Assembly (NCBI GenBank): GCA_963665235.2
Contig: CAXXLX010000001.1
Span: 3,584,001 to 3,648,000, forward strand
Length of the DNA: 64,000 nucleotides
Origin: Candidatus Poribacteria bacterium
Lineage (GTDB): Bacteria > Poribacteria > WGA-4E > WGA-3G
Direction: 5' to 3'
In this document: positions 4,003-53,081 of the stretch, piece by piece
How the letters are laid out: each line of letters opens with the position of its first letter
Position numbering within the stretch: the stretch's first letter is position 1
Notes under the pieces: model-generated
What the model saw: only the letters and a program-made list of their open reading frames with translations
Databases searched by the model: none
Told to the model about the DNA's origin: nothing
Made by a program: the position numbers and the translations under genes

Positions 4003-4018
4003 TGGCACGGTTTTTGCA
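4003..4018 (+). promoter_or_regulatory. Sigma54 (-24/-12) promoter
   Basis: TGGCACGGTTTTTGCA, GG-N10-GC consensus, downstream of enhancer array. Confidence 0.85.
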
Positions 4019-8840: not shown

Positions 8841-11800
8841 CTATTTTGTCACCTGAACTGTTCCGCTTGATGCAACTGCTGCCTTGGAGGGGTCATACAT
8901 AGCCTCTGCAGCAATCGGCGGCACCGTAAATGTGCCTTGCGTTACCACTCTAAGTGGATAGTAGAACTTTTGCTGCTGTTGGTATCGAAGCGAGCCATAC
9001 AGGATAAGTCTATCATCCCGAATGTCTATATAATCGGGTCTGAAGTCTTGCTGTTGCCTTTGTGATGCTTGTCCGCCAGCGGCTCTCGGAGCCGACCTTT
9101 CCCCCCATAGTCCACGTGCGCTAGAGACCAATCTCGGATTCTCGACCTCAAATCCGGCAGGCAACATATCGACGATGACTACGTTCTCCAGGTCGCTTGT
9201 GAGTGCCTTCACACTTATCTCAGCAATTATCAGTTCACCCTGTTGAAAGACGTTTTTGACTCGGGTGCGGTCTGTCGTAAGATAGCGGCGGTTTATCTGC
9301 AACTCACGTCCATATTCCTCAATATAGGAGTCTCTGCTTATCCCGAAAGCCTCCCAATAAAAGTAACAGGTGCCTTTTCCCTGTACCTTAAGTGCTATCT
9401 GTGCACCATCCCAATCCGAGCCGATATGTTGGGCTCCGGTTGAATCGAAGTTAGCGAGATGTTCGCCGTTTTGGCTAATTGTTCCAGTGAATTTCTGATT
9501 CGGTTGTTTTTTCAAAAACTTACCGAGTGCCAGGAAAGCGAAGGCGTTCTCTTGTGTAGTGCCCCACCGTTGTCCTTTGGATGCTGCGTCGGTTAAACTT
9601 TCAACGAGTTTAGGAATTGCGGGGTGGTCGGCCTTAACTTCTATCAGCACATCCAGCATGATGGCTTGTGCGCGAATAGGGGAGTCAAAATTTCGGCCCG
9701 TATCCCGTCGTGCCTCCTTTTCGAGGTCTACGGAGTCAGGCAACATTGAGAGAGCCATCTTGAGATTGCCGCTGAGCGCGAACGCGCCTGCGAGCTGAAA
9801 TTGGCTATAATCATGAAGTTCGCTTAATCGGTTGTTATTGAGATAGTGCATCACAGGTTTTTCAGGTTGCCCGGCTGCTGCCAGTACGTAGCAGGCATAA
9901 GCAGCACGTGATAGGTCATAGCTATCGGCTTTTTCATTTGGTCTGTGAATGCTTCCAGCACGTTTCGCTTGTCGTCTCAACCCTTCCAACATTCTATTGT
10001 AAACAGTTTCAGGGACTTTGTATCCCGCTTTTCGTGCTTCGACAAGAAAGTGAGAAGCGTAGATGCTACTCCAATTATTGATATAGGCTCTTCCTTGCCA
10101 TCTTCCTTGCCAATAAGCGAAGTAGTGTTCTGGTTGTAACATATCCTCCAATTTTGCGATGCCCACGTCAATATATTCGTCAATTTTTCCATCCGCTGCC
10201 AGTGCCGGTTCAACGATACGGGCAAGCTCGCTGAGATGGAGCAGCGTGAAAATCCGGCTCGTTGTTTGCTCCAGGCACCCGTGCGGATATTGTATTAGAT
10301 AGCGAAGTCCACCTGCAAACCTAACGGTGGGAAGCGGTGACACTGTCAGCATAAATTCAGAGGTATCCGCTCGCAGATTTGAGGGGAAGATGAAATCCGC
10401 AGGTTCACCTGCCCTGACAATCCCTTGACCTGTCTTTGTCACAGGCGGTGCCGCTGACCGAAGCGGTAGCTGAACTGGGGCAGATTGTATCTCTTCGCCA
10501 TTGCCAGTAGCGGACAGGTTAAATGTGACAATACCAACAGCATCGTGTGCAATAACGTCAAAATAGAGTTGCCCCTCCTTGTCGGCTGCAATCTCCATCT
10601 CTTTTTGAAGTGAATTTCCTTGAGCGATAACTACATGGTCAATAGAACCGTCTTCCGCAAGGAGCTGGACGGGCCCGCTTGCATCTAATTTAACGGTGAA
10701 ATTACCGCTTTCACTAGTGCCGTTATAAACTGAAATAGGCACGCGAATCCGATCGCCGCCGGAGAGAAAACGTGGGAATGTCGGTGTTAGCACTACCGGT
10801 TCACGCACCTGAATCTGTCCGGTCCCTGAACCGTAATCCGTGCCAGCGAACGCGACCGCCATTATACGTAGTGTGCCATTGAATTGGGGTATCTTAAAAC
10901 GGACACTGCCATCACCATTCGCGTCGGTTGTCATTAAACCTGACCATAGCGACACAGGTTTCACCCGGATTGCACTGCTTCTGTTAATCCGTCGACCCCC
11001 TGCTATACCCGCACCCACATATCCTGTATAGTCACTAATTGCCATACTAGCCCTAGCCTGCATTAATGCAGGCAACCCTTCTTCATAAAGCATCAGAGTC
11101 GTCAAATCGGCGAGCGATTCAATCGGTTTGATAGGAAAGCGATTGCTCTTCATGATTGCGGTGTAAAATTCATTCGCAGAGGTTTCAAGTCTTCTCTGTT
11201 GATAAAAATAAGCGTGTGGTTCAGGCGTTTCTGTGTTTGTCAATTGAAGAATGCCTTCATCAACAGCGGCAATGCTAACTCGGTAAGGTTTCCCTTCGCT
11301 TTCACCACGCACCCGAAACTTTATCTCCACCTCGCGGTGAGAGCGGGTCTGTTTAGGAGCATCTATTTCTACCTGTAGCTTGCGCGGTTCCGCATCGAGT
11401 TTTAAGGGAACAATCCCGAAAGCCCGAGCGGATGCATGTTTGCCCAGGGACGTTGTAGAACGGATTAGTAGGGCAGAGAGATAAACGTTTGGTGCGTAGG
11501 TGTTCTTAACCGGAATTGTCACCGCTGCCGTGCTGTCTTTCACCATGAATGTCTGATAACTTAACACCTTCTCCTGTTCAATTGTTAGCAGCACCTTACC
11601 GGGGAAGGGGGCTTTAATATGCAACTTCGCCGCTTCTCCGGGACGATACGCGGTTTTATCAAGTGTCATCTCAAGCTTCTCTGGACTTTCCCCTGACCAA
11701 GGCACGCCGCCCCATTCGGAAACAAAGAATTGCATTGAAACTTTTGCACCGCTCTCAACATCCTCGATCGCTACACGATGGACACCATACGCGGTCGGGG

Positions 11801-14387
11801 TGAAACTGAAATTTGCTATTTCCGCCGTTGACGTTAAAGTATAGGATTCCAACTCTGTAGCTATAGGTGAAGAGCGTTGCCTGCTTCTTCGCGACTGGGA
11901 AATAGCAGAAATTGTCGCCTTTAAAGTTCGTCCGGGGACAGTATTCCCCTCCGGATCAATTGAAATATAGTCAAAGGTGGCCTTTTCATTCAATTTGACT
12001 GTTCCCGATTGTGGACGTTTGAGCCCGACATAATGGGAGTACGGATGAACAGAGGCCCATTTTGAATTAGTGACCGAGCGTCCGCCGGGTTCTTGGACAG
12101 TCGCGCCAATATTAACATTGAGTGAAGAGGGCGGTTTCAGGCCTTCAGGAAGTGTAATCTGATATGTAGCTTTTCCATCTACATTCGTTATAGCTTCGTC
12201 AAGGCTCACGCCATCGTGTTCAAAAGTGCGCGTTGGATCGGAGAAGGTGAACGAACGCCACTTCTCAGGCGGGGTATAAGGCACTGCTTGAAGAGCGTAA
12301 TAGGCACTAACTTTTCTACCTACTGCTGGGGTACCGAAGAGATTCATCGCCTTAACCTCCAAATTAATCTCGTCGCCCAGCATATAAACGTCCTTATCTA
12401 CCGCTACTGAAACCTTCATCCGCTCGGGTATAAAATCCTCAATTTGAAACGAACCACCCCCAATCTGTTTTTTATCCACCCACATTCTAGCACTGTACGA
12501 ACCTGTTGGTGTAGCGGCGGAGAACGGTATCTGAATTTCACAAGCACCTTCAGGCCCCGTTTGCGTCTGAAACTCTTTGAACACTGAGTCGTAAGGGGTT
12601 AGAATCTCAACACGTATTGGTAGCGAGGCGGGAGCTTTACTGTACTTGTCGCGTACAATTCCTACAAGATTGACCGTTTCACCGGGACGATACACCTTGC
12701 GTTCCGTATAAAGAAATGCCTCATATCCCTCTGTCAAAAAAGGCGCGCCACTAACATTAAACGCACTTGTTGAGAGATGGTACGAGCTCAATTGGAGAAA
12801 GGAGAAATCATCGCCTTTGGAAACAGTAAGAAGCAGTGAGGCATTCGTAAGGAGCGGTGAGGCCTCCTGAGCTATTTTATCAGCACCCGACGAAAATTTA
12901 AGAAAACCCGCAGCATCCGTTTTGCCTGTGAGTAGTGTTTCTTTCTTATCTCTATTAATCAGTTGAACTGTTGCCTCGGAAATCGGGTCTAAAGAATCCA
13001 GTGAATTGACCCAAACCGATAGGACATCGTCAGTTCTTTTCGTGACAATACCTATATCCGTAACAAGAAGCAATTGCTCTATCTGCACATTATGATGATT
13101 CGCGTTAACCATCACTTTGAAAATACCGCCTTGGGCATCACGGAGTGATTTCTTAAGCGGGAATGGCACAATTATCTCTTCATTCAGTCGTGATGCAATC
13201 TCAAGCTCTTCGTTATGGATGAGTATAGGGAGGTCAAAAAAGGAGAGCTTTGCAATACTGAACAGGACGCGGTCTACGTTAGTTGTTGCTAATTTGAGGT
13301 CGGTAGTGCCTTTACGGGGTAGGAAAAGATTTTGATTGGTAAAACGAATCCGTGGCTGTAAATCTGGAATTTCAAACCTTTTAACATAGCTATCTTTCAA
13401 AATCGAACCGGTTTCCGAAACTAAACCGCGTTTAATGTGAACGGTATATGCTGTTCTACACTTGAAATTACCCCGAATTTCTATCGCGCGATGCGTTTCT
13501 AATAATTGGGACGAAACGGATGGGACAATACTTACGTGTTGACGAAAATTTTCAAGTGGAACGTCTGAATTAAACGAGATTGTGATGGTTGGTATGCCAT
13601 CTCTGTCATAAATATTTTCGCGCTCAATGCGGAGTTCGTTAATCTCACCTAACACTATTGGTAAGATGTTCGTCTCTTTAAGCCCAATTTCGGTCCCTGC
13701 ACATTTAAATCCTTTTTTGACCTGCACCCAAAGATATCGCCCTTCAATAACTCGTGAAATATCACTGATTTCTATGAGGGCGGTTTTTGTAATTGCATTC
13801 TGGGGTTGAAAGGTGTAAGGTATTTCAGTCTCGTTCTCCGTTACAATTGAAAGGAATTCCGATAGACCCTCAATATTGACAGCATAGTTAAAGGTTACCG
13901 TCCCAATAGCCTTCGCCTTTTTCAATTCCTTATCGTATTGGAAACCGAGTTCAGCATGTTCTACCTGAAAGGGGGGGGTTGAATGGGTGAACGTTCGCTC
14001 CCCTGTGAGAACAAAATCCGAGGATGGATTCAGTACTGTTGAGAGTTCAAATGTGTAATCAATAGAGGGTGCCAAAGCCTCTTCTAAGAAGAAACCGATT
14101 TGATTAAATCCTACCCACCGTGCTTTTCCTTCAACCGCAGGTGTGACCTTAATGGCATCGCTCGGCAATTCAGTGAAAAGCAATTCGTTGTTAATTACGG
14201 ATTTAGAGAACGTTATCAAAAAATCTGCCGTGCTATGATTATTCTCAATCTCCGCACCGTGTGCGAACGATTGGACACTGAATTCTGTCTGCTTCTCCTC
14301 ATCTGCATCCACAAACCGGACCGGGAAACACACGATGATGGGAAAAATAAAGGTTATAAAACCGATTAAAAACTTTTTGGATACCAT
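8841..14387 (-). CDS. Bacterial alpha-2-macroglobulin family protein
   Basis: YRPGETV MG2 motif, AAVDEGIL, thioester YPHGCLEQ, WGTTQENA, DMLPAGFEVEN, AEAMYDP. Confidence 0.95.
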   Translation of the reverse strand: MVSKKFLIGFITFIFPIIVCFPVRFVDADEEKQTEFSVQSFAHGAEIENNHSTADFLITFSKSVINNELLFTELPSDAIKVTPAVEGKARWVGFNQIGFFLEEALAPSIDYTFELSTVLNPSSDFVLTGERTFTHSTPPFQVEHAELGFQYDKELKKAKAIGTVTFNYAVNIEGLSEFLSIVTENETEIPYTFQPQNAITKTALIEISDISRVIEGRYLWVQVKKGFKCAGTEIGLKETNILPIVLGEINELRIERENIYDRDGIPTITISFNSDVPLENFRQHVSIVPSVSSQLLETHRAIEIRGNFKCRTAYTVHIKRGLVSETGSILKDSYVKRFEIPDLQPRIRFTNQNLFLPRKGTTDLKLATTNVDRVLFSIAKLSFFDLPILIHNEELEIASRLNEEIIVPFPLKKSLRDAQGGIFKVMVNANHHNVQIEQLLLVTDIGIVTKRTDDVLSVWVNSLDSLDPISEATVQLINRDKKETLLTGKTDAAGFLKFSSGADKIAQEASPLLTNASLLLTVSKGDDFSFLQLSSYHLSTSAFNVSGAPFLTEGYEAFLYTERKVYRPGETVNLVGIVRDKYSKAPASLPIRVEILTPYDSVFKEFQTQTGPEGACEIQIPFSAATPTGSYSARMWVDKKQIGGGSFQIEDFIPERMKVSVAVDKDVYMLGDEINLEVKAMNLFGTPAVGRKVSAYYALQAVPYTPPEKWRSFTFSDPTRTFEHDGVSLDEAITNVDGKATYQITLPEGLKPPSSLNVNIGATVQEPGGRSVTNSKWASVHPYSHYVGLKRPQSGTVKLNEKATFDYISIDPEGNTVPGRTLKATISAISQSRRSRQRSSPIATELESYTLTSTAEIANFSFTPTAYGVHRVAIEDVESGAKVSMQFFVSEWGGVPWSGESPEKLEMTLDKTAYRPGEAAKLHIKAPFPGKVLLTIEQEKVLSYQTFMVKDSTAAVTIPVKNTYAPNVYLSALLIRSTTSLGKHASARAFGIVPLKLDAEPRKLQVEIDAPKQTRSHREVEIKFRVRGESEGKPYRVSIAAVDEGILQLTNTETPEPHAYFYQQRRLETSANEFYTAIMKSNRFPIKPIESLADLTTLMLYEEGLPALMQARASMAISDYTGYVGAGIAGGRRINRSSAIRVKPVSLWSGLMTTDANGDGSVRFKIPQFNGTLRIMAVAFAGTDYGSGTGQIQVREPVVLTPTFPRFLSGGDRIRVPISVYNGTSESGNFTVKLDASGPVQLLAEDGSIDHVVIAQGNSLQKEMEIAADKEGQLYFDVIAHDAVGIVTFNLSATGNGEEIQSAPVQLPLRSAAPPVTKTGQGIVRAGEPADFIFPSNLRADTSEFMLTVSPLPTVRFAGGLRYLIQYPHGCLEQTTSRIFTLLHLSELARIVEPALAADGKIDEYIDVGIAKLEDMLQPEHYFAYWQGRWQGRAYINNWSSIYASHFLVEARKAGYKVPETVYNRMLEGLRRQAKRAGSIHRPNEKADSYDLSRAAYACYVLAAAGQPEKPVMHYLNNNRLSELHDYSQFQLAGAFALSGNLKMALSMLPDSVDLEKEARRDTGRNFDSPIRAQAIMLDVLIEVKADHPAIPKLVESLTDAASKGQRWGTTQENAFAFLALGKFLKKQPNQKFTGTISQNGEHLANFDSTGAQHIGSDWDGAQIALKVQGKGTCYFYWEAFGISRDSYIEEYGRELQINRRYLTTDRTRVKNVFQQGELIIAEISVKALTSDLENVVIVDMLPAGFEVENPRLVSSARGLWGERSAPRAAGGQASQRQQQDFRPDYIDIRDDRLILYGSLRYQQQQKFYYPLRVVTQGTFTVPPIAAEAMYDPSKAAVASSGTVQVTK

Positions 14388-14449
14388 GGAATACCTCCTA
14401 AAGAGTTGGGTGTGCTAAAAGCTATCTGTTGTCCTGTCGCAAGATTTTG

Positions 14450-14465
14450 TGCAAGTTTTATGCCA
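14450..14465 (-). promoter_or_regulatory. Sigma54 promoter of alpha-2-macroglobulin gene
   Basis: Reverse strand TGGCATAAAACTTGCA (GG-N10-GC) about 60 bp before the start codon. Confidence 0.75.
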
Positions 14466-14469
14466 ATAT

Positions 14470-14564
14470 TGATAAGTGCTTATGATAGTAGGATATAGAG
14501 GGAACTCTAGCGGGCGAGGGGACCTCGCCCCTACGAGGTTTAGTGCTAAATTTGCGTCTGTTCT
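14470..14564. repeat. Degenerate partial copy of the 47900-48011 MITE with REP-like hairpin
   Basis: tgataa..tgatagt..tagag..tagcgggc.ggg.ac..cgcccctac.aggttt...taaatttgcgt shared with 47918-48011. Confidence 0.6.
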
Positions 14565-14625
14565 GTTTAACATTATACCACAGCCTTATTTATTATTTGG
14601 GGAATTTTTAAAAAATTCGCTGATG

Positions 14626-14673
14626 CTGCACGAAATGGGGCAGTTATTTTCAATTATGTCCCGTTTCGTGCAG
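14626..14673. promoter_or_regulatory. Inverted repeat between divergent sigma54 promoters (putative enhancer)
   Basis: CTGCACGAAATGGG ... CCCGTTTCGTGCAG (13/14 complementary), resembles NtrC-type TGCAC-N-GTGCA sites. Confidence 0.55.
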
Positions 14674-14736
14674 TTAACACGTACGCTAACCCTTCTGAAA
14701 CCCCCAATATCTCTTATGTCATTGATATGATTAAGG

Positions 14737-14752
14737 TGGCACGGAAATTGCA
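14737..14752 (+). promoter_or_regulatory. Sigma54 promoter (predicted TSS about 14763)
   Basis: TGGCACGGAAATTGCA, consensus -24/-12. Confidence 0.85.
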
Positions 14753-14791
14753 TGTATTATGCTGAATAAGGCTAACAAGTAGGAGTTTATC

Positions 14792-15045
14792 GTAAAGATC
14801 ACCCAGCTAAAGCTTGGGTGCTTTGACACAGCGTAGCCACACACGTTCCCTGTCAAGGATTAAGTTCTTCACTACAGTAATATATCGGGTATTCTGAGCG
14901 TGGCAGCTCATAAGATGTCTCGGATGCTCCCCAAGTCCGACCCCTCTCTGAATACCTGATCTGGATGGGGAAATATACAACCTCTCGGAAGTAAAACAAA
15001 TGACTTACGGTCATCCGTTTTACTTCCGTAGGGAGATTACAAACT
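14792..15045 (+). ncRNA. omegaRNA scaffold (IsrB-associated); guide from the 5' flank about 14763-14791
   Basis: About 250-nt structured non-coding region directly upstream of isrB; includes CGGATGCTCCCCAAGTCCGACCCCTCT and hairpin CGGAAGTAAAAC...GTTTTACTTCCG. Confidence 0.75.
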
Positions 15046-16098
15046 ATGTTTGTTCCGGTTCAAAGCAAGTCTGGCAAACCCTTAATGCCGACACATTCTA
15101 ACAAAGCGGGTGTGCTAATCAAAAAAGGATTGGCAACACCCTATTGGCGTAATGGTATCTTTTGTATTCGGTTAAACTACGAGACGAAAGAACACACACA
15201 GAAAATCTGTGTGGGCGTGGATCCTGGTTCCAAGAAAGAAGGCTTCACGGTGAAGTCTGAGGCTCACACATATCTGAATGTGCAAGCCGATGCACATAAC
15301 AAGGTTGGAAAAAAAGTTAAAAAAAGAGGTATATTGAGACGGGGTCGTAGAACCCGGAAATGTCCAAACCGGAAACATCGAACAAATCGAGTAGCGAAGA
15401 AAGAACGTCTCCCGGCAGGCACCCGTGCCCGTTGGGATTGGAAACTTCGGATATTAGATTGGTTGTCTAAACTCTATCCTGTTACACACGTCTGTGTTGA
15501 GGATATCAAAGCGCGGACTATTGAAAATGCTAAGAAATGGAACACGGCTTTTAGTCCGCTTGAGGTGGGCAAGACATGGTTTTATGGTGAAATAGAAAAG
15601 CGGTGGGAACTGCTAACCCTTCAAGGGTGGCAGACAAAACAGCTGCGTGACAAGCTCGGTTTGAAAAAGTCATCTCAAAAGTTGGCAGAGACTTTTGAGG
15701 CACATTGTGTTGACGCGTGGTGCTTAGCCTACCATACCGTGGGGGGGGATGCGGAAACCGTGGACAATACAGACATATTCTGCATTTCACCGATACCCAT
15801 ACGCAGGCGGGAACTGCATCGGCAGAACCCACAAACTGGGGGAAACAGACCTCGCTATGGCGGAACTGTGCTAACGGATACACTTATCAAAAACACACTG
15901 ATCAAACATGGTAAGCATGGTATCACACGTCCGAGGTCCCACCGAGGACATCCTATTACGGGTATTAATGCGAAAGGGTTGTTTTCTATCTATAGCTTAG
16001 AAGGGGAACGCCTCACAACGGGGGCGAAACGCACAGATTTTCAAGTGCTAACACGCTTGAACTTCAACTATAAAGGCGGATTTTCCTCCCCCGCATAA
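15046..16098 (+). CDS. isrB: IsrB, RNA-guided RuvC nickase (RRXRR/PLMP, no HNH)
   Basis: KPLMP, RuvC-I VGVDPG (D59), Arg-rich bridge helix RRGRRTR, RuvC-II VEDI (E152), RuvC-III HCVDA (H220/D223), 350 aa, no HNH motif. Confidence 0.85.
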   Translation: MFVPVQSKSGKPLMPTHSNKAGVLIKKGLATPYWRNGIFCIRLNYETKEHTQKICVGVDPGSKKEGFTVKSEAHTYLNVQADAHNKVGKKVKKRGILRRGRRTRKCPNRKHRTNRVAKKERLPAGTRARWDWKLRILDWLSKLYPVTHVCVEDIKARTIENAKKWNTAFSPLEVGKTWFYGEIEKRWELLTLQGWQTKQLRDKLGLKKSSQKLAETFEAHCVDAWCLAYHTVGGDAETVDNTDIFCISPIPIRRRELHRQNPQTGGNRPRYGGTVLTDTLIKNTLIKHGKHGITRPRSHRGHPITGINAKGLFSIYSLEGERLTTGAKRTDFQVLTRLNFNYKGGFSSPA

Positions 16099-16128
16099 AT
16101 GCTGGGGGTTTCCAATCCGAAGAACTTG

Positions 16129-17634
16129 ATGATACTTCGAATTCTTCAATTGACCTTTTTAATGGCGGTGTTCTGTGGATGTACCCCGTTTTTGTCACAA
16201 AACGTTGAGAAACCTGGACATGTTGAGAACGATGCAATGACCCCTGACCTAAAAACGATTATCGCCGGGATGCAGCACTATGATGGTTTAATTGCCTCTG
16301 CAACTGGTGAGTTTATCATTGAACGTTACAAACGGGGTGGGGCAGAAACCGAGAAAATTCGATACGCGTTGACGTTCGACGGTGAAAAGGTTCAAATCCA
16401 AAAGAGACGCGGATGGAGCCCTTCGCTTGCAGGAAAAATCCGTGCCATCCGGAAAAAGGTTGTTCCGCTCGTAGGACGTGCTTTTCCCATCGCGGACATT
16501 TACGATGACCAACGGCATTGGAAGATATATAACCGAAAAGAGCCGCTCTTTAGCATTGAGATTCCATCTGACAACGGGAATCTTGGGATAGAGACGATTC
16601 GACAGGCGTTCACACAAAAAGGCGTTGAAATCGGAGACAATATCCGCATCGCCATCGATAAACATATAGATAGTTTCACGCTTACTGATAACGAAACAGA
16701 TAAAACCTACCTTGTTTATCGAGCGGGGGAAACAGGTTGGCAGGTTTATAACCAGCATCTTGAATACACAGAAGCGTACGATGACTCCCAACTCCAATAC
16801 GCCGCTCGACATCAGCAACACACGCTTTATCAACTAGACCCACGATATTGGCTCACTTATCCGACTATTCCTATAAACAGCTATCTAATTGAGCCGATGT
16901 GGCAGCTGCTGAAAAAATATGAGAGTCAACTTTTAGGAACTGAAGTTTTGAATGGCGAACCGACAGCCGTCGTTCAACTCAATTTACCCACTGTTCGTAG
17001 AACGGAAGCCCCACAACATTCACCTTATCAGCCCCTTAAAATCTGGATTGCTTATGAGAAGGGATTCCGGATAGTCAAGTGGGAGCGGACATTTACCGCT
17101 AAAACGTCGGGACCGGGGCCAGGGTTCAAAAAAGGTGTAACCTACACCGAAACGTTGGAATTTGATTATCATGAATATCTGCCGGGCATCTGGTTCCCGC
17201 AGAAGATTGAACGTTCCTTCTCACCAATTAAAGGTGTATTCGTTCCAAAAACCGTCCTTCTCACAAAGCAGTGTCGGTTAAACAGTGATGTCACCGAGTT
17301 ATTCCATTCAGCTCCATCTCCTAGAACGCCGGCGTACGGTAGTTTAAGGACAAACGTTGAAAAACTCGCCGCTTTACATCGGGTATTCCCGCGAGTTCTT
17401 GAACGTCGTGTTGCCGCATTGGAATTGAGTAGGGAAATTGGCGAGGTCCATCGGAAAGACCCGGAACTTACGCTGCTAAGAAAACAAACCCATGAGTTAG
17501 CACGTGACCTGAGGCATGCTATCACGCGGTTCACTACTGCTTATGCTGGGCTTACTCATAATCGTTCGGTTTTTCGCCCAGGGGGGGATTTTCATAAACT
17601 TATGGAGCGAAACCATATCTCCTTCGGCAGATAA
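16129..17634 (+). CDS. Hypothetical lipoprotein
   Basis: MILRILQLTFLMAVFCGC lipobox; KIWIAYEKGFRIVKWE and EYLPGIWFP segments reminiscent of LolA-like sorting folds. Confidence 0.7.
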   Translation: MILRILQLTFLMAVFCGCTPFLSQNVEKPGHVENDAMTPDLKTIIAGMQHYDGLIASATGEFIIERYKRGGAETEKIRYALTFDGEKVQIQKRRGWSPSLAGKIRAIRKKVVPLVGRAFPIADIYDDQRHWKIYNRKEPLFSIEIPSDNGNLGIETIRQAFTQKGVEIGDNIRIAIDKHIDSFTLTDNETDKTYLVYRAGETGWQVYNQHLEYTEAYDDSQLQYAARHQQHTLYQLDPRYWLTYPTIPINSYLIEPMWQLLKKYESQLLGTEVLNGEPTAVVQLNLPTVRRTEAPQHSPYQPLKIWIAYEKGFRIVKWERTFTAKTSGPGPGFKKGVTYTETLEFDYHEYLPGIWFPQKIERSFSPIKGVFVPKTVLLTKQCRLNSDVTELFHSAPSPRTPAYGSLRTNVEKLAALHRVFPRVLERRVAALELSREIGEVHRKDPELTLLRKQTHELARDLRHAITRFTTAYAGLTHNRSVFRPGGDFHKLMERNHISFGR

Positions 17635-48232: not shown

Positions 48233-48248
48233 TGGCACGAGAATTGCT
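48233..48248 (+). promoter_or_regulatory. Sigma54 promoter
   Basis: TGGCACGAGAATTGCT, GG-N10-GC. Confidence 0.85.
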
Positions 48249-51803: not shown

Positions 51804-53081
51804 ATGCAAACTGAAGAAAACAGGTCCCATCATCAGAAGTACATTGTTATTGTTGGTGAGTCATCCGATACCCTGAAAAGTTTAAGCAATTTCCTTGAAC
51901 AGAACGGGTATGAAGTCTCTATCGATGCAGAGGGCAGTGATATACTGCGTCAACTTGTGAGCACAAATCCAGGTGTGCATCTGTATCTATTAGCACCTCA
52001 GGTCATGTCTACCTCTCCTGTGGTGCAGAAAGAGAAAGACGAAGCACTTTCTACAAGAAATCTATTGCACGGGGATTACACAGAAATCGTAGGTGAAAGT
52101 TCACAACTTTTTAAAGTTTTCACCCAAATTGAGCAGGTTGCACATACGGATGCAAAGGTGCACATTTATGGCGAGACAGGAACTGGCAAAGAGTTGGTAG
52201 CGCGTGCCTTGCACCGAAACAGCAATCGCTCGGGGGAAGCGATGGTTACTGTCAATTGTGCTGCATTTCCAGAGAACTTGATGGAAGATGAACTCTTTGG
52301 GCATGAAAAGGGGGCCTTTACCGGTGCAAACACACAACGTATCGGTAAGTTTGAAAGAGCGCATAAAGGGACGTTATTCCTTGATGAAATCGGGGCGATG
52401 CCGCTCTCACTTCAACCGAAGTTGTTACGGGTGGTTGAGGCAGGTGAGATTGAACGCATCGGGGCCGAAAAACCAATTCCGGTGGATGTCAGAATTGTGT
52501 CAGCTACTAACCAAAACCTTCAGCAAGCTGTTGAAAACGGTATGTTCCGCGAGGACCTCTATTATCGGTTAAATGTATTTTCTATCTTCTTACCCCCTTT
52601 GCGAGAACGGAGACAGGACATTCGCTGTTTAGCTGAACACTTTTTAAAAAAATATAACGAAAACTCTAAGCAAACACATCGTAAAATAGCATTGCAGACG
52701 CATATTTTGCTCCAAAACTACGCCTGGCCCGGAAATGTCCGCGAACTTGAGAACGCCATGAAAAGCGCGGTTATTCGTGCACAGGGCGGAGATATTTTAC
52801 CAGAACACTTTCTGGAAAGAATATGGACAAGGCAATCGAGGAACCTGGACTTATCGGGGGAGAGACAAATCCCTGGAGCAGAACGCACACTCAGTCTTCC
52901 TATCGGAACATCCATGAAACAGATAGAGAAAGCATTTATCTTGAACACTTTAGCAGAAATGGATGGAAATCGCACGAAAACCGCAGCGGTACTGCAAATT
53001 AGCTTGCGTTCGTTGCAAAACAAATTAAAAACTTACTCTCAAAGGGAGGAAGTAGACAAGCACAGAGACCTACCCTTGTAG
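51804..53081 (+). CDS. Sigma54-dependent transcriptional activator (degenerate receiver)
   Basis: GETGTGKE, DELFGHEKGAFTGA, WPGNVRELEN, HTH; N-domain lacks canonical acidic pocket. Confidence 0.92.
   Translation: MQTEENRSHHQKYIVIVGESSDTLKSLSNFLEQNGYEVSIDAEGSDILRQLVSTNPGVHLYLLAPQVMSTSPVVQKEKDEALSTRNLLHGDYTEIVGESSQLFKVFTQIEQVAHTDAKVHIYGETGTGKELVARALHRNSNRSGEAMVTVNCAAFPENLMEDELFGHEKGAFTGANTQRIGKFERAHKGTLFLDEIGAMPLSLQPKLLRVVEAGEIERIGAEKPIPVDVRIVSATNQNLQQAVENGMFREDLYYRLNVFSIFLPPLRERRQDIRCLAEHFLKKYNENSKQTHRKIALQTHILLQNYAWPGNVRELENAMKSAVIRAQGGDILPEHFLERIWTRQSRNLDLSGERQIPGAERTLSLPIGTSMKQIEKAFILNTLAEMDGNRTKTAAVLQISLRSLQNKLKTYSQREEVDKHRDLPL

What the first reader, a model, noticed from the sequence alone, without database searches (positions are those of the whole stretch)
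14737..16132. IsrB OMEGA element wedged between an RBS and its start codon, with a sigma54 promoter positioned to write the guide
Seen: deleting 14792-16128 gives ...AGGAGTTTATC|ATGATACTTCGA, an RBS 6 nt before the ATG of the lipoprotein gene. The ORF has PLMP, RuvC D59/E152/D223 and no HNH, preceded by about 250 nt of hairpin-rich DNA. A sigma54 promoter (14737-14752) predicts a TSS near 14763, about 29 nt before the element. Established: IsrB/IscB guides come from the 5' flank of the omegaRNA, the TAM lies 3' of the target, and NTGA/ATGA-type TAMs are reported. Inference: guide = ...ATAAGGCTAACAAGTAGGAGTTTATC, TAM = ATGA (the host start codon), and this RNA-guided nickase is expressed under enhancer-dependent sigma54 control.
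Basis: partly seen in the sequence, partly recalled or inferred. Interest (0 to 1): 0.85.

Follow-up and report, generated by a model that had tools for sequence, protein, structure and literature searches.

The report
IsrB transposon parked at a start codon
A small mobile element that carries an RNA-guided DNA nickase (IsrB) and its guide-RNA scaffold sits exactly between the ribosome-binding site and the start codon of a bacterial lipoprotein gene; it is a clear example of a known kind of element, not a new system.

Summary
Window 14792-16128 is a 1337-bp non-autonomous IS200/IS605-superfamily element of the ISC1/IsrB type. It has a 254-nt structured RNA (14792-15045), a 350-aa IsrB gene (15046-16098) and a terminal hairpin. 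ATGA follows it (16129-16132), and that ATG is the start codon of a 501-aa putative lipoprotein.

Fifteen of 15 paralogous 5' ends begin at 14792, and 34 of 38 3' ends are followed by ATGA. Public contigs of two studies join 14791 directly to 16129, which is the predicted empty allele.

The protein matches solved DtIsrB (E 2.4e-36; Foldseek TM 0.69/0.73), with D59, E152 and D223 invariant and no HNH domain. The RNA shows strong covariation, including a pseudoknot.

The sigma54 consensus at 14737-14752 is real and non-random. rpoN and activator genes are present. Its use was not tested, and a sigma70-like site lies upstream.

N|ATGA targeting (Kapitonov 2016) and the need for outside transcription of the guide (Meers 2023) are already in print, so this is a new member of a known kind.

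One thing goes beyond the finding. The family, abundant in Candidatus Poribacteria, often sits at true start codons (16 of 29 here), including murJ, argJ and an aconitase-family gene. How those genes are then translated is unexplained.

The parts
14737..14752 (+). Sigma54-type promoter consensus TGGCACGGAAATTGCA (GG at -24, GC at -12). Predicted start near 14763. Most likely the lipoprotein gene's own promoter.
   Evidence: Exact match, 3 in the window against 0.07 expected; 33 in the genome. rpoN present. 11 strong activator genes, two of them in the window. Its use was not tested.
14763..14791 (+). Host 5' leader that holds the SD (AGGAG, 14781-14785). Its last ~20 nt (14772-14791) are the inferred IsrB guide.
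   Evidence: Direct reading. Flanks differ at every copy. The guide role is inferred from IsrB/IscB literature.
14792..16128 (+). Non-autonomous ISC1/IsrB element of the IS200/IS605 superfamily, 1337 bp, with no terminal inverted repeats and no target duplication.
   Evidence: Ends shared with paralogs. Empty-allele contigs skip exactly 14792-16128.
14792..15045 (+). OmegaRNA-like scaffold, 254 nt. It includes the transposon-end hairpin (14800-20) and a copy-specific 48-nt hairpin insertion (about 14983-15030) in the SD stem-loop.
   Evidence: z -4.09. 86.9% of cells paired against 30-50% with partners slid; 33 of 52 pairs change on both sides; pseudoknot pair AU:44/UA:30. The insertion is seen against paralogs. 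RNA contigs cover 14792-15080.
15046..16098 (+). isrB gene, 350 aa: PLMP domain, split RuvC (D59, E152, H220, D223), no HNH.
16088..16108 (+). Subterminal hairpin of the other transposon end (CCCCCGCA-TAAA-TGCTGGGGG). The isrB stop TAA (16096-98) is in its loop and is directly followed by ATG 16099.
   Evidence: Direct reading. A compensated variant CCCCGTGC-TAAA-GCAACGGGG occurs in 10 of 30 listed ends.
16129..16132 (+). ATGA: conserved target of insertion, inferred TAM, and start codon plus first base of codon 2 of the host gene.
   Evidence: ATGA after 34 of 38 own 3' ends. In 73 relatives' elements, 68 ATGA and 5 GTGA. N|ATGA target known for ISC1-1_MA.
16129..17634 (+). Host gene, 501 aa, with an N-terminal signal peptide and a Cys-containing lipobox-like motif (MILRILQLTFLMAVFCGC). 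No Pfam family.
   Evidence: Only distant homologs (<= 47% identity) in 10 of 40 related genomes.
14450..14465 (-). Second, divergent sigma54-like site (TGGCAT-N5-TTGCA) facing the 1848-aa alpha-2-macroglobulin-like gene (8841-14387, minus strand).
   Evidence: Relaxed pattern list (C1:3598465 minus). Direct reading.

Best explanation
Window 14792-16128 is a non-autonomous IS200/IS605-superfamily insertion sequence of the ISC1/IsrB type.

How it got there. A Y1 (HUH) transposase encoded elsewhere in the genome moved it as single-stranded DNA. It inserted immediately 5' of an ATGA that happens to be the start codon of a lipoprotein gene. No bases were duplicated or lost, so the gene's Shine-Dalgarno sequence now lies 1337 bp from its ATG.

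How it probably works. The element has no recognisable promoter of its own. Transcription from the host gene's promoter region reads through the 5' leader into the element. The most likely source is the sigma54-type promoter 55 bp upstream. This produces an RNA whose 5' part is the flank (the guide) and whose next 254 nt fold into the omegaRNA scaffold, followed by the isrB mRNA.

IsrB bound to this RNA would recognise the empty site, that is, flank followed by ATGA (an NTGA-type TAM), and nick it. That would favour recombinational re-copying of the element after excision or into empty alleles. The occupied site escapes because GTAA, not NTGA, follows the guide match.

What is shown: the identity of the parts, the exact ends, the conserved ATGA, the empty allele, the RNA structure and the promoter motif. 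What is inferred: guide usage, nicking, homing and promoter choice.
For: Protein:
- RRXRR 1e-30.
- 8dmb IsrB E 2.4e-36.
- AF2 model (pLDDT 72) with 8dmb_P as best fold, E 7.5e-24, TM 0.69/0.73 over 352 columns.
- Catalytic D59/E152/D223 invariant in 40 of 40.
- No HNH.

Ends: 15 of 15 5' ends and 34 of 38 3' ends as predicted. Both ends carry TAAA-loop hairpins with compensated stems.

Empty allele: the 14791|16129 joint in X1 and X7, two studies.

RNA:
- Covariation in 11 helices, 0 of 500 shuffles reach any of the five measures.
- An HMM of it hits the first ~210-257 nt of 21 of 21 full-length own elements. It hits most of its length (HMM positions 1-189 or further) in 7 of 8 short ones, and positions 1-130 in the eighth.
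- Metatranscriptome contigs cover 14792-15080.

Transposase: 13 Y1_Tnp matches in the genome. One of them sits in an IS whose end hairpin is CCCCCAGCTAAAGCTTGGGGG, close to the hairpins here.

Promoter. No sigma70-like site on the + strand inside 14792-15045.

Literature: NTGA TAM, ~300-nt omegaRNA, SD inside the last hairpin (PMC9581776, passages and section 6). Outside transcription needed (Meers preprint, passages). N|ATGA, 5'-GTCA... termini (PMC4810608, passages).
Against: - No activity was measured.
- No raw RNA reads were on hand, so no 5' end, no guide length and no promoter use are known.
- Rfam has no match here, so homology of this RNA to the solved DtIsrB omegaRNA is argued from position, size and architecture only.
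- The C-terminal (TAM-reading) part of the model is of low confidence (pLDDT < 50 at 250-275, 300-305 and 336-350), and phmmer aligned only residues 3-279 to DtIsrB.
- This copy carries a 48-nt hairpin insertion in the SD stem-loop and a 24-nt in-frame insertion in isrB. Either could impair it.
- The partner TnpA was not identified. The one related IS end found is followed by ATAA, not ATGA, and a motif search of ten TnpA loci found no shared termini.
- The nearest paralogs are only 92-93% identical, so no recent donor copy is visible in this genome.
Confidence: 0.85

Rival explanations
1. The anatomy is the same, but the guide-bearing transcript does not come from the sigma54 promoter. It starts at a sigma70-type or other promoter further upstream, or comes from read-through, and the RNA is trimmed to guide length by host nucleases. 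Sigma54 and enhancer control are then irrelevant to IsrB.
For: A sigma70-like site TTAACA-18-TATTAT (10 of 12) lies at 14567-14596 on the + strand. Only 2 of 30 own elements have a sigma54-type match within 3 kb upstream, so the family does not depend on such promoters. Meers et al. (passages) argue only for 'transcriptionally active sites'.
Against: The sigma70 scan found 5 sites against 3.1 +/- 1.5 expected, so it is not above chance. The sigma54 match is exact, rare (0.07 expected per window) and correctly placed for the host gene (29-nt leader with SD). A second, divergent sigma54-like site and two activator genes lie in the window.
Confidence: 0.3
2. This copy is an inactive relic. The element inserted long ago and is no longer mobile or guided, and the empty allele in other samples is simply the ancestral, never-occupied state.
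For: This copy has a 48-nt insertion in the omegaRNA and a 24-nt insertion in isrB. Its nearest paralogs are 92-93% identical. The diverged X7 relative is empty.
Against: The ORF is intact with all catalytic residues. 19 own copies span residues 1-346 or more without stops. The site is also empty in X1, a run of the same coded organism with 0 differences on the flanks. The insertion is therefore polymorphic within a near-identical population, which needs recent gain or loss. The same 24-nt insertion is present in copies of three subfamilies with open frames.
Confidence: 0.15
3. The element has been co-opted as a regulatory cassette of the host gene, for example as a reversible on/off switch of lipoprotein translation through excision and re-insertion. 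It would then not be a purely selfish insertion.
For: The insertion separates SD from ATG. The occupied/empty polymorphism exists. Many family members sit at start codons.
Against: The same family sits at the start codons of housekeeping genes such as murJ, argJ and an aconitase-family gene, where switching off would be harmful. With a null restricted to sites outside gene interiors, relatives show no excess (19 of 71 against 20.7%, p 0.24). There are no expression data.
Confidence: 0.05

Closest known systems
DtIsrB-omegaRNA of Desulfovirgula thermocuniculi (PDB 8DMB; Hirano et al. 2022, PMC9581776)
   Same: About 350 aa; PLMP + split RuvC + C-terminal domain; no HNH. Best sequence hit (E 2.4e-36) and best fold hit (TM 0.69/0.73). 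A structured RNA of a few hundred nt directly upstream, starting with a transposon-end hairpin and ending in a hairpin that holds the SD. A pseudoknot is supported by covariation. The flank is ATGA/GTGA, which fits the NTGA TAM.
   Different: Only 29% identity in the structural alignment. The family scaffold is ~205-215 nt (254 here) against 262 nt. RNA homology was not tested directly, because I could not obtain the Dt RNA. There is no biochemical evidence here.
ISC1-1_MA of Microcystis aeruginosa and other ISC transposons (Kapitonov et al. 2016, PMC4810608)
   Same: Non-autonomous, encodes only the HNH-less Cas9 homolog; 5'-GT(C/A)A... terminus, subterminal hairpins, inserts N|ATGA without duplication; empty orthologous loci confirm the ends.
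   Different: A different phylum: the best 80 loci are all Candidatus Poribacteria. Two terminal subfamilies occur (GTAAAG..., GTCAAT...). That paper's text holds no mention of start codons (0 occurrences of the term). Its supplementary figures were not seen.
IscB/TnpB IS200/IS605 elements of Geobacillus stearothermophilus (Meers et al. 2023, preprint 10.1101/2023.03.14.532601)
   Same: OmegaRNA bounded by the transposon end with the guide outside it. Transcription must start outside the IS. Elements are co-oriented with upstream genes. Transposase target and nuclease TAM coincide. The nuclease restores the element at the donor joint.
   Different: Those are IscB (with HNH, double-strand cutters) or TnpB. 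Here the enzyme is a presumed nickase, so how a nick leads to re-copying is open. Here a specific promoter and a 29-nt leader can be named.
Standalone omegaRNA loci / PATE-like miniature IS200/IS605 derivatives
   Same: 8 own elements of 450-652 nt lack isrB. Seven keep most of the omegaRNA (HMM positions 1-189 or further of 211; the eighth only 1-130). All 8 keep both ends and the ATGA flank.
   Different: Their function in trans with IsrB is assumed from what PMC9581776 section 6 says of IscB.

Membership tests
IsrB (HNH-less IscB1, OMEGA nickase) | N-terminal PLMP domain | tested here: met
   Pfam RRXRR E 1e-30 on residues 3-155. P12-L13-M14-P15 present; L13, M14 and P15 are invariant or >= 90% conserved in 40 sequences. 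Model pLDDT 81-96 over residues 1-60.
IsrB (HNH-less IscB1, OMEGA nickase) | Split RuvC with acidic catalytic residues in motifs I, II, III | tested here: met
   D59, E152 and D223 (and H220) are invariant in 40 of 40. They align with the DPG, ED and D motifs of 8dmb. RuvC folds appear as further hits.
IsrB (HNH-less IscB1, OMEGA nickase) | No HNH insertion | tested here: met
   No HNH family at E <= 0.1. The NCBIfam IscB model matches only its positions 3-157 of 314, at 89.3 bits below the cut-off of 175. Length 350 aa.
IsrB (HNH-less IscB1, OMEGA nickase) | C-terminal TAM-interacting domain like that of DtIsrB | tested here: inconclusive
   Foldseek aligns 352 columns to 8dmb_P. But phmmer stops at residue 279, and the model is below pLDDT 50 at 250-275, 300-305 and 336-350.
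IsrB (HNH-less IscB1, OMEGA nickase) | Structured omegaRNA encoded directly upstream, beginning at the transposon end | tested here: met
   On 81 distinct sequences, 86.9% of cells are paired and 33 of 52 pairs have compensatory change, against slid-partner controls of 30-50% and 10-19.
IsrB (HNH-less IscB1, OMEGA nickase) | RNA-guided nicking of the non-target strand next to an NTGA TAM | not testable with these tools
   Genomic proxy only: ATGA after 34 of 38 own 3' ends; 68 ATGA + 5 GTGA of 73 in relatives.
Rfam HEARO / any Rfam RNA family | Covariance-model match | tested here: not met
   cmscan of 14000-17000 at E <= 1 gives only a chance miRNA hit, 22 bits against a gathering score of 90. 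The RNA is therefore not filed under an Rfam family.
IS200/IS605 superfamily, ISC1 group | Subterminal hairpins, no terminal inverted repeats, no target-site duplication, fixed 4-nt target beside one end | tested here: met
   Hairpins at 14800-20 and 16088-108 with compensated variants. The empty allele is seamless. ATGA flank.
IS200/IS605 superfamily, ISC1 group | Y1 (HUH) transposase available in trans with matching ends | tested here: inconclusive
   13 PF01797 matches. One lies in an IS with a near-identical hairpin but an ATAA flank. A motif search found no TnpA locus with the same termini.
Sigma54-dependent promoter | -24 GG / -12 GC elements with correct spacing | tested here: met
   TGGCAC-N5-TTGCA at 14737-14752. 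3 in the window against 0.07 expected.
Sigma54-dependent promoter | rpoN and enhancer-binding activators in the genome | tested here: met
   One Sigma54_DBD match, E 2e-56. 11 Sigma54_activat matches at E <= 1e-40, two inside the window.
Sigma54-dependent promoter | Transcription start about 12 nt after the GC element, dependent on sigma54 and an activator | not testable with these tools
   All runs laid were assembled contigs, which cannot show RNA ends.

The most novel reading that the evidence does not exclude
This Poribacteria IsrB family is adapted to live as a leader cassette in front of host genes. By inserting N|ATGA at start codons, it borrows the host promoter and 5' leader to make its guide, omegaRNA and isrB mRNA. 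Its A/U-rich 3' tail, or in some subfamilies a TAA|ATG stop-start in the end hairpin, then supplies a replacement translation start.

That would explain how even essential genes (murJ, argJ, an aconitase-family gene) tolerate it. It would also explain why orthologous start codons stay occupied across species. The sigma54 case in the window would be one instance in which the nickase and its guide inherit the regulation of the gene they occupy.
Probability: 0.25. Interest if true: 0.7.

Novelty: new member of a known kind. Interest (0 to 1): 0.45.

Why it matters
As a single locus it is an unusually clean natural specimen. Every part of an IsrB OMEGA element can be placed to the base: the guide source, scaffold, nuclease, end hairpins and TAM. 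The matching empty allele is found in public data, and a named promoter lies 55 bp upstream. That makes it a good test case for how IscB/IsrB guides are transcribed and trimmed in nature, a point that the literature I read infers rather than shows.

The wider pattern raises a concrete question: how is a gene translated when a transposon separates it from its ribosome-binding site? Dozens of copies in sponge-symbiont genomes show it, many exactly at the start codons of real and partly essential genes.

It does not change what is known about the mechanism of OMEGA systems.

Tried and rejected
1. Empty allele in related genomes. The 40 relatives searched contain no genome of the same genus. The host gene has only <= 47% identical partial homologs, in 10 of 40, so no orthologous locus could be compared. 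The question was answered with public runs instead.

2. Rfam: no family hit.

3. Frame constraint between isrB and the host ATG: rejected. In 73 relatives the stop-to-ATG gap is mostly 27-31 nt (68 of 73) and takes all three frames: 36, 19 and 18. The open frame 16099-17634, fused to the host gene, is therefore a property of this subfamily and not a rule.

4. General translational coupling to isrB: doubtful. Huber et al. 2023 (PMC10666635, abstract only) report that gaps of ~20 nt nearly abolish reinitiation. In addition, 8 isrB-less mini elements exist, and 5 of them sit at start-like sites.

5. Idea that the element's GTAA restores a stop for an upstream gene overlapping at ATGA: 0 of 29 elements lie at such overlaps; the genome rate is 2.7%.

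6. Start-codon excess as a special targeting rule.
- Against all 39,677 ATGA sites the excess is large: own genome 16 of 29 against 4.4%, p 8e-15; relatives 19 of 71, p 1.7e-10.
- Against a null restricted to sites outside gene interiors (20.7%), it stays significant only in the own genome (p 4.7e-5) and not in relatives (p 0.24).
- Copies and genomes are not independent, and the null uses crude ORF calls.

7. TnpA partner: a motif search of ten TnpA loci found no shared termini.

8. Sigma54 link across the family: only 2 of 30 own elements have a match within 3 kb upstream.

9. RNA depth in X8 (97-367 on 14792-15080 against 0-24 on the ORF and the 3' end) comes from contigs of paralogs or relatives. 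It cannot rank expression, and the contig that starts at 14792 marks a graph break, not an RNA end. Parts without cover in X5 and X8 are not interpreted.

10. A second X7 joint (14791 to 16136, with 10 other letters between, depth 11.1, side 27) was not pursued.

12. Supplementary files of the papers were not opened. Figs S2-S6 of Kapitonov 2016 and Extended Data of Meers 2023 may bear on target context.


Full report
**What is there.**
- The window between 14737 and 16132 reads, left to right: an exact sigma54-type motif TGGCACGGAAATTGCA (14737-14752); a short leader with AGGAG (14781-14785); then GTAAAGATCACCC... from 14792.
- A 350-codon ORF runs 15046-16098.
- The sequence ...CCGAAGAACTTG ends at 16128, and ATGATACTTCGA begins a 501-codon ORF with a signal-peptide-like N-terminus (16129-17634).

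**Are the ends real?**
- The window's genome (G000, 5.31 Mb, 4 contigs) holds many relatives of this stretch. A DNA search gave 58 matches, whose homology starts at query base 33 (= 14792) and stops at 1373 (= 16132).
- A protein search gave 30 matches. Nineteen of them span residues 1-346 or more without stops.
- All 15 of 15 5' ends that reach the terminus start GTAAAGATCACCC after unrelated flanks. A second terminal type starts GTCAATAACCCCC.
- Of 38 distinct 3' ends, 34 are followed by ATGA and then by unrelated sequence. Four degenerate ones are not.
- Pairing gave 29 complete elements from 30 5' ends: 21 of about 1260-1410 bp and 8 of 450-652 bp.
- Both ends carry a hairpin with a TAAA loop whose stem changes in a compensated way between subfamilies.

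**The empty allele.**
- No related genome of the same genus was available, and the host gene has only distant homologs. I therefore laid public runs on 13800-17200.
- Contigs join 14791 directly to 16129, skipping 1337 bases, in two runs of two studies.
- In X1 (same coded organism as the best holders; flanks without differences), a 294-nt contig holds 14528-14791 plus 30 letters of 16129 onward. Its depth is 22.2, against flank depths of 28 and 23.2.
- In X7 (another coded organism), a 1740-nt contig about 7.5% diverged carries 93 letters across the joint.
It also shows that the insertion is polymorphic among near-identical genomes.
- These are assembled contigs, so proportions of cells cannot be given. 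X1 may be the sample the genome came from.

**The protein.**
- Pfam RRXRR (the PLMP/RuvC-I region) matches at E 1e-30.
- The NCBIfam IscB model matches only its first half and stays below its cut-off.
- The best solved relative is DtIsrB, 8dmb, E 2.4e-36 over residues 3-279. IscB chains match only the N-terminal ~110-150 residues.
- In alignments of 11 and 40 family members, D59, E152, H220 and D223 are invariant.
- An AlphaFold2 model (mean pLDDT 72, pTM 0.64) finds 8dmb_P first, at E 7.5e-24 and TM 0.69/0.73 over 352 columns. IscB structures come next, followed by RuvC.
- The C-terminal part, which reads the TAM in DtIsrB, is poorly modelled, so I leave that feature open.

**The RNA.**
- 14763-15050 folds at -90.3 kcal/mol, z -4.09.
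- RNAalifold on 25 family members predicted 28 pairs, 14 of them with compensatory changes.
- On 83 sequences (81 distinct) from this genome and other Poribacteria, I wrote a 52-pair structure. It has a stem between the first bases and a downstream strand, the end hairpin, a two-level stem, a three-pair helix closing a large domain, two inner hairpins, a CCCCA/UGGGG pseudoknot and the SD hairpin.
- 86.9% of cells pair, against 30-50% when partners are slid by 1-3 columns. 33 of 52 pairs change on both sides, against 10-19. None of 500 shuffles reaches any measure. The variable pseudoknot pair is AU in 44 and UA in 30 sequences.
- The structure was derived from these sequences, which favours it over the slid versions. 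The two-sided changes are nevertheless numerous.
- In outline it resembles the DtIsrB omegaRNA as described in section 6 of PMC9581776: guide adaptor with a dispensable transposon-end stem-loop, pseudoknots, and a last hairpin holding the SD.
- I could not compare sequences, and Rfam gives no hit.
- The family scaffold is ~205-215 nt. This copy is 254 nt because of a 48-nt hairpin inserted in the SD stem-loop.
- Metatranscriptome contigs (X8) cover 14792-15080.

**Guide, TAM, self-avoidance.**
- IsrB is reported to use a 5' guide and to nick next to 5'-NTGA-3' (PMC9581776, passages).
- Here the base after the element is A or G, followed by TGA, in 34 of 38 own ends and 73 of 73 parsed relatives (68 ATGA, 5 GTGA). 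Two further loci were not parsed.
- In the occupied locus the guide match is followed by GTAA (or GTCA in the other subfamily). That differs from NTGA at the third base, so the element would not target itself. This is direct reading plus inference.

**The promoter.**
- The motif occurs 3 times in the window against 0.07 expected, with 0 of 100 shuffles reaching 3. It occurs 33 times in the genome. From base composition I estimate about 5 by chance; that is my own arithmetic.
- rpoN is present. There are 14 Sigma54_activat matches, 11 of them strong, and two lie in the window.
- A TGGCAT-N5-TTGCA site on the other strand faces the neighbouring 1848-aa gene.
- With GC at -12 (14750-14751), the start would be near 14763, leaving 29 nt of flank before the element.
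- This is almost certainly the lipoprotein gene's own promoter. Whether it fires, and whether it makes the guide, is untested.
- A sigma70-like site lies at 14567-14596, but that scan is not above chance.
- Only 2 of 30 own elements have a sigma54-type site within 3 kb upstream.

**What is already known.**
- Kapitonov et al. 2016 (PMC4810608, passages read) described ISC1 elements with 5'-GTCA termini inserted N|ATGA and verified them by empty loci.
- Meers et al. 2023 (preprint, passages read) state that IscB omegaRNAs end at the transposon end, that the guide lies outside, that transcription must therefore start outside the IS, and that upstream genes are co-oriented.
- A 2026 review (PMC13565253, passages) treats IsrB as part of transposon restorative homing.

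**Beyond the finding.**
- The best 80 of 341 related loci in a scan of one genome per species are all Candidatus Poribacteria, so the window's organism is probably one too (inference).
- After rebuilding the empty sites, 19 of 29 own elements have an ORF of >= 100 aa starting at the flanking ATG. Of these, 16 also have <= 20 open codons upstream, and 9 also have an SD 4-mer. The corresponding rates among all 39,677 ATGA sites are 17.5%, 4.4% and 2.2%.
- Pfam profiles begin at the first residues of several of these proteins: ArgJ, aconitase family, MurJ, BatA and 5-FTHF cyclo-ligase. Seven of the 10 tested have a family. These are therefore true start codons.
- In other genomes the start-like share is 19 of 71.
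- Against a stricter null that allows only sites outside gene interiors (20.7% start-like), the own genome is still enriched (p 4.7e-5) but the relatives are not (p 0.24).
- Most of the pattern thus follows from an ATGA target plus loss of intragenic insertions.
- What remains unexplained is how genes such as murJ are translated behind the element. The isrB stop lies mostly 27-31 nt before the host ATG, in any frame. Mini elements without isrB also sit at start codons. About half of start-like sites lack an SD 4-mer anyway (895 of 1749).
- In the window's subfamily a TAA|ATG in the end hairpin opens a 10-codon leader in frame with the host gene.
- Two orthologous start codons are occupied in different species by elements of different terminal type: argJ, with host proteins 81% and IsrB 74% identical; and an ABC-ATPase-like gene, 86% and 79%. 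This fits long residence, but the numbers are small.

**Verdict.** This is a new member of a known kind, of moderate interest.

Noticed in passing
G000-wide; e.g. C1:3542271-3543561 (murJ), C2:342218-343511 (argJ), C1:1196978-1198239 (aconitase family): IsrB and mini elements of this family sit exactly before true start codons of housekeeping genes: 16 of 29 own elements are start-like. How these genes are translated once separated from their SD is unexplained.
   Followed up: partly
window about 15930-15955 (inside isrB); also C1:892827-893144 and at least four other contexts in G000: A 24-nt in-frame insertion (adds PRSHRGHP) is present in some IsrB copies of three subfamilies and absent from close relatives. 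The same ~28 nt occur at 96-100% identity in unrelated places, and an 18-nt unit of it forms a tandem array of about 17 copies.
   Followed up: partly
window about 14508-14540: A GC-rich hairpin repeat (GGGCGAGGGGACCTCGCCCC core) has about 90 copies in the genome and a summed contig depth of 4318 in run X1, against ~28 for its flanks. It looks like a REP-type element, and it lies between the two divergent sigma54-like sites.
   Followed up: partly
window 14983-15030; L025, L086, L147: The apical loop of the SD-containing last hairpin of the omegaRNA is a hot spot for insertions of long hairpins: 48 nt here, longer in L025, and a different ~42 nt in L086 and L147.
   Followed up: no
window 8841-14387 (minus strand): An 1848-aa protein with a GCLEQ thioester-like motif looks like a bacterial alpha-2-macroglobulin (recalled, not tested). 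It is preceded by its own sigma54-like site at 14450-14465.
   Followed up: no
C2:340285, C1:646531, C1:4266710, C1:1142365 in G000: A sibling IS family has an end hairpin CCCCCAGCTAAAGCTTGGGGG and a similar tail, but it is flanked by ATAA instead of ATGA. One copy lies next to a Y1 transposase gene at C2:339792-340142.
   Followed up: partly
own C2:342218-343511 vs L096/L117; L074 vs L121: The same orthologous start codons (argJ; an ABC-ATPase-like gene) are occupied in different Poribacteria genomes by elements of different terminal subfamily. IsrB is 74-79% identical and the host proteins 81-86%. Either this reflects long residence or repeated hits on the same site.
   Followed up: partly
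window 4003-4018 and 48233-48248; ORF 388-2286 and about 52086-52586: There are two more exact sigma54 consensus sites and two sigma54-activator genes in the same 64-kb window. The region is rich in sigma54 features.
   Followed up: no
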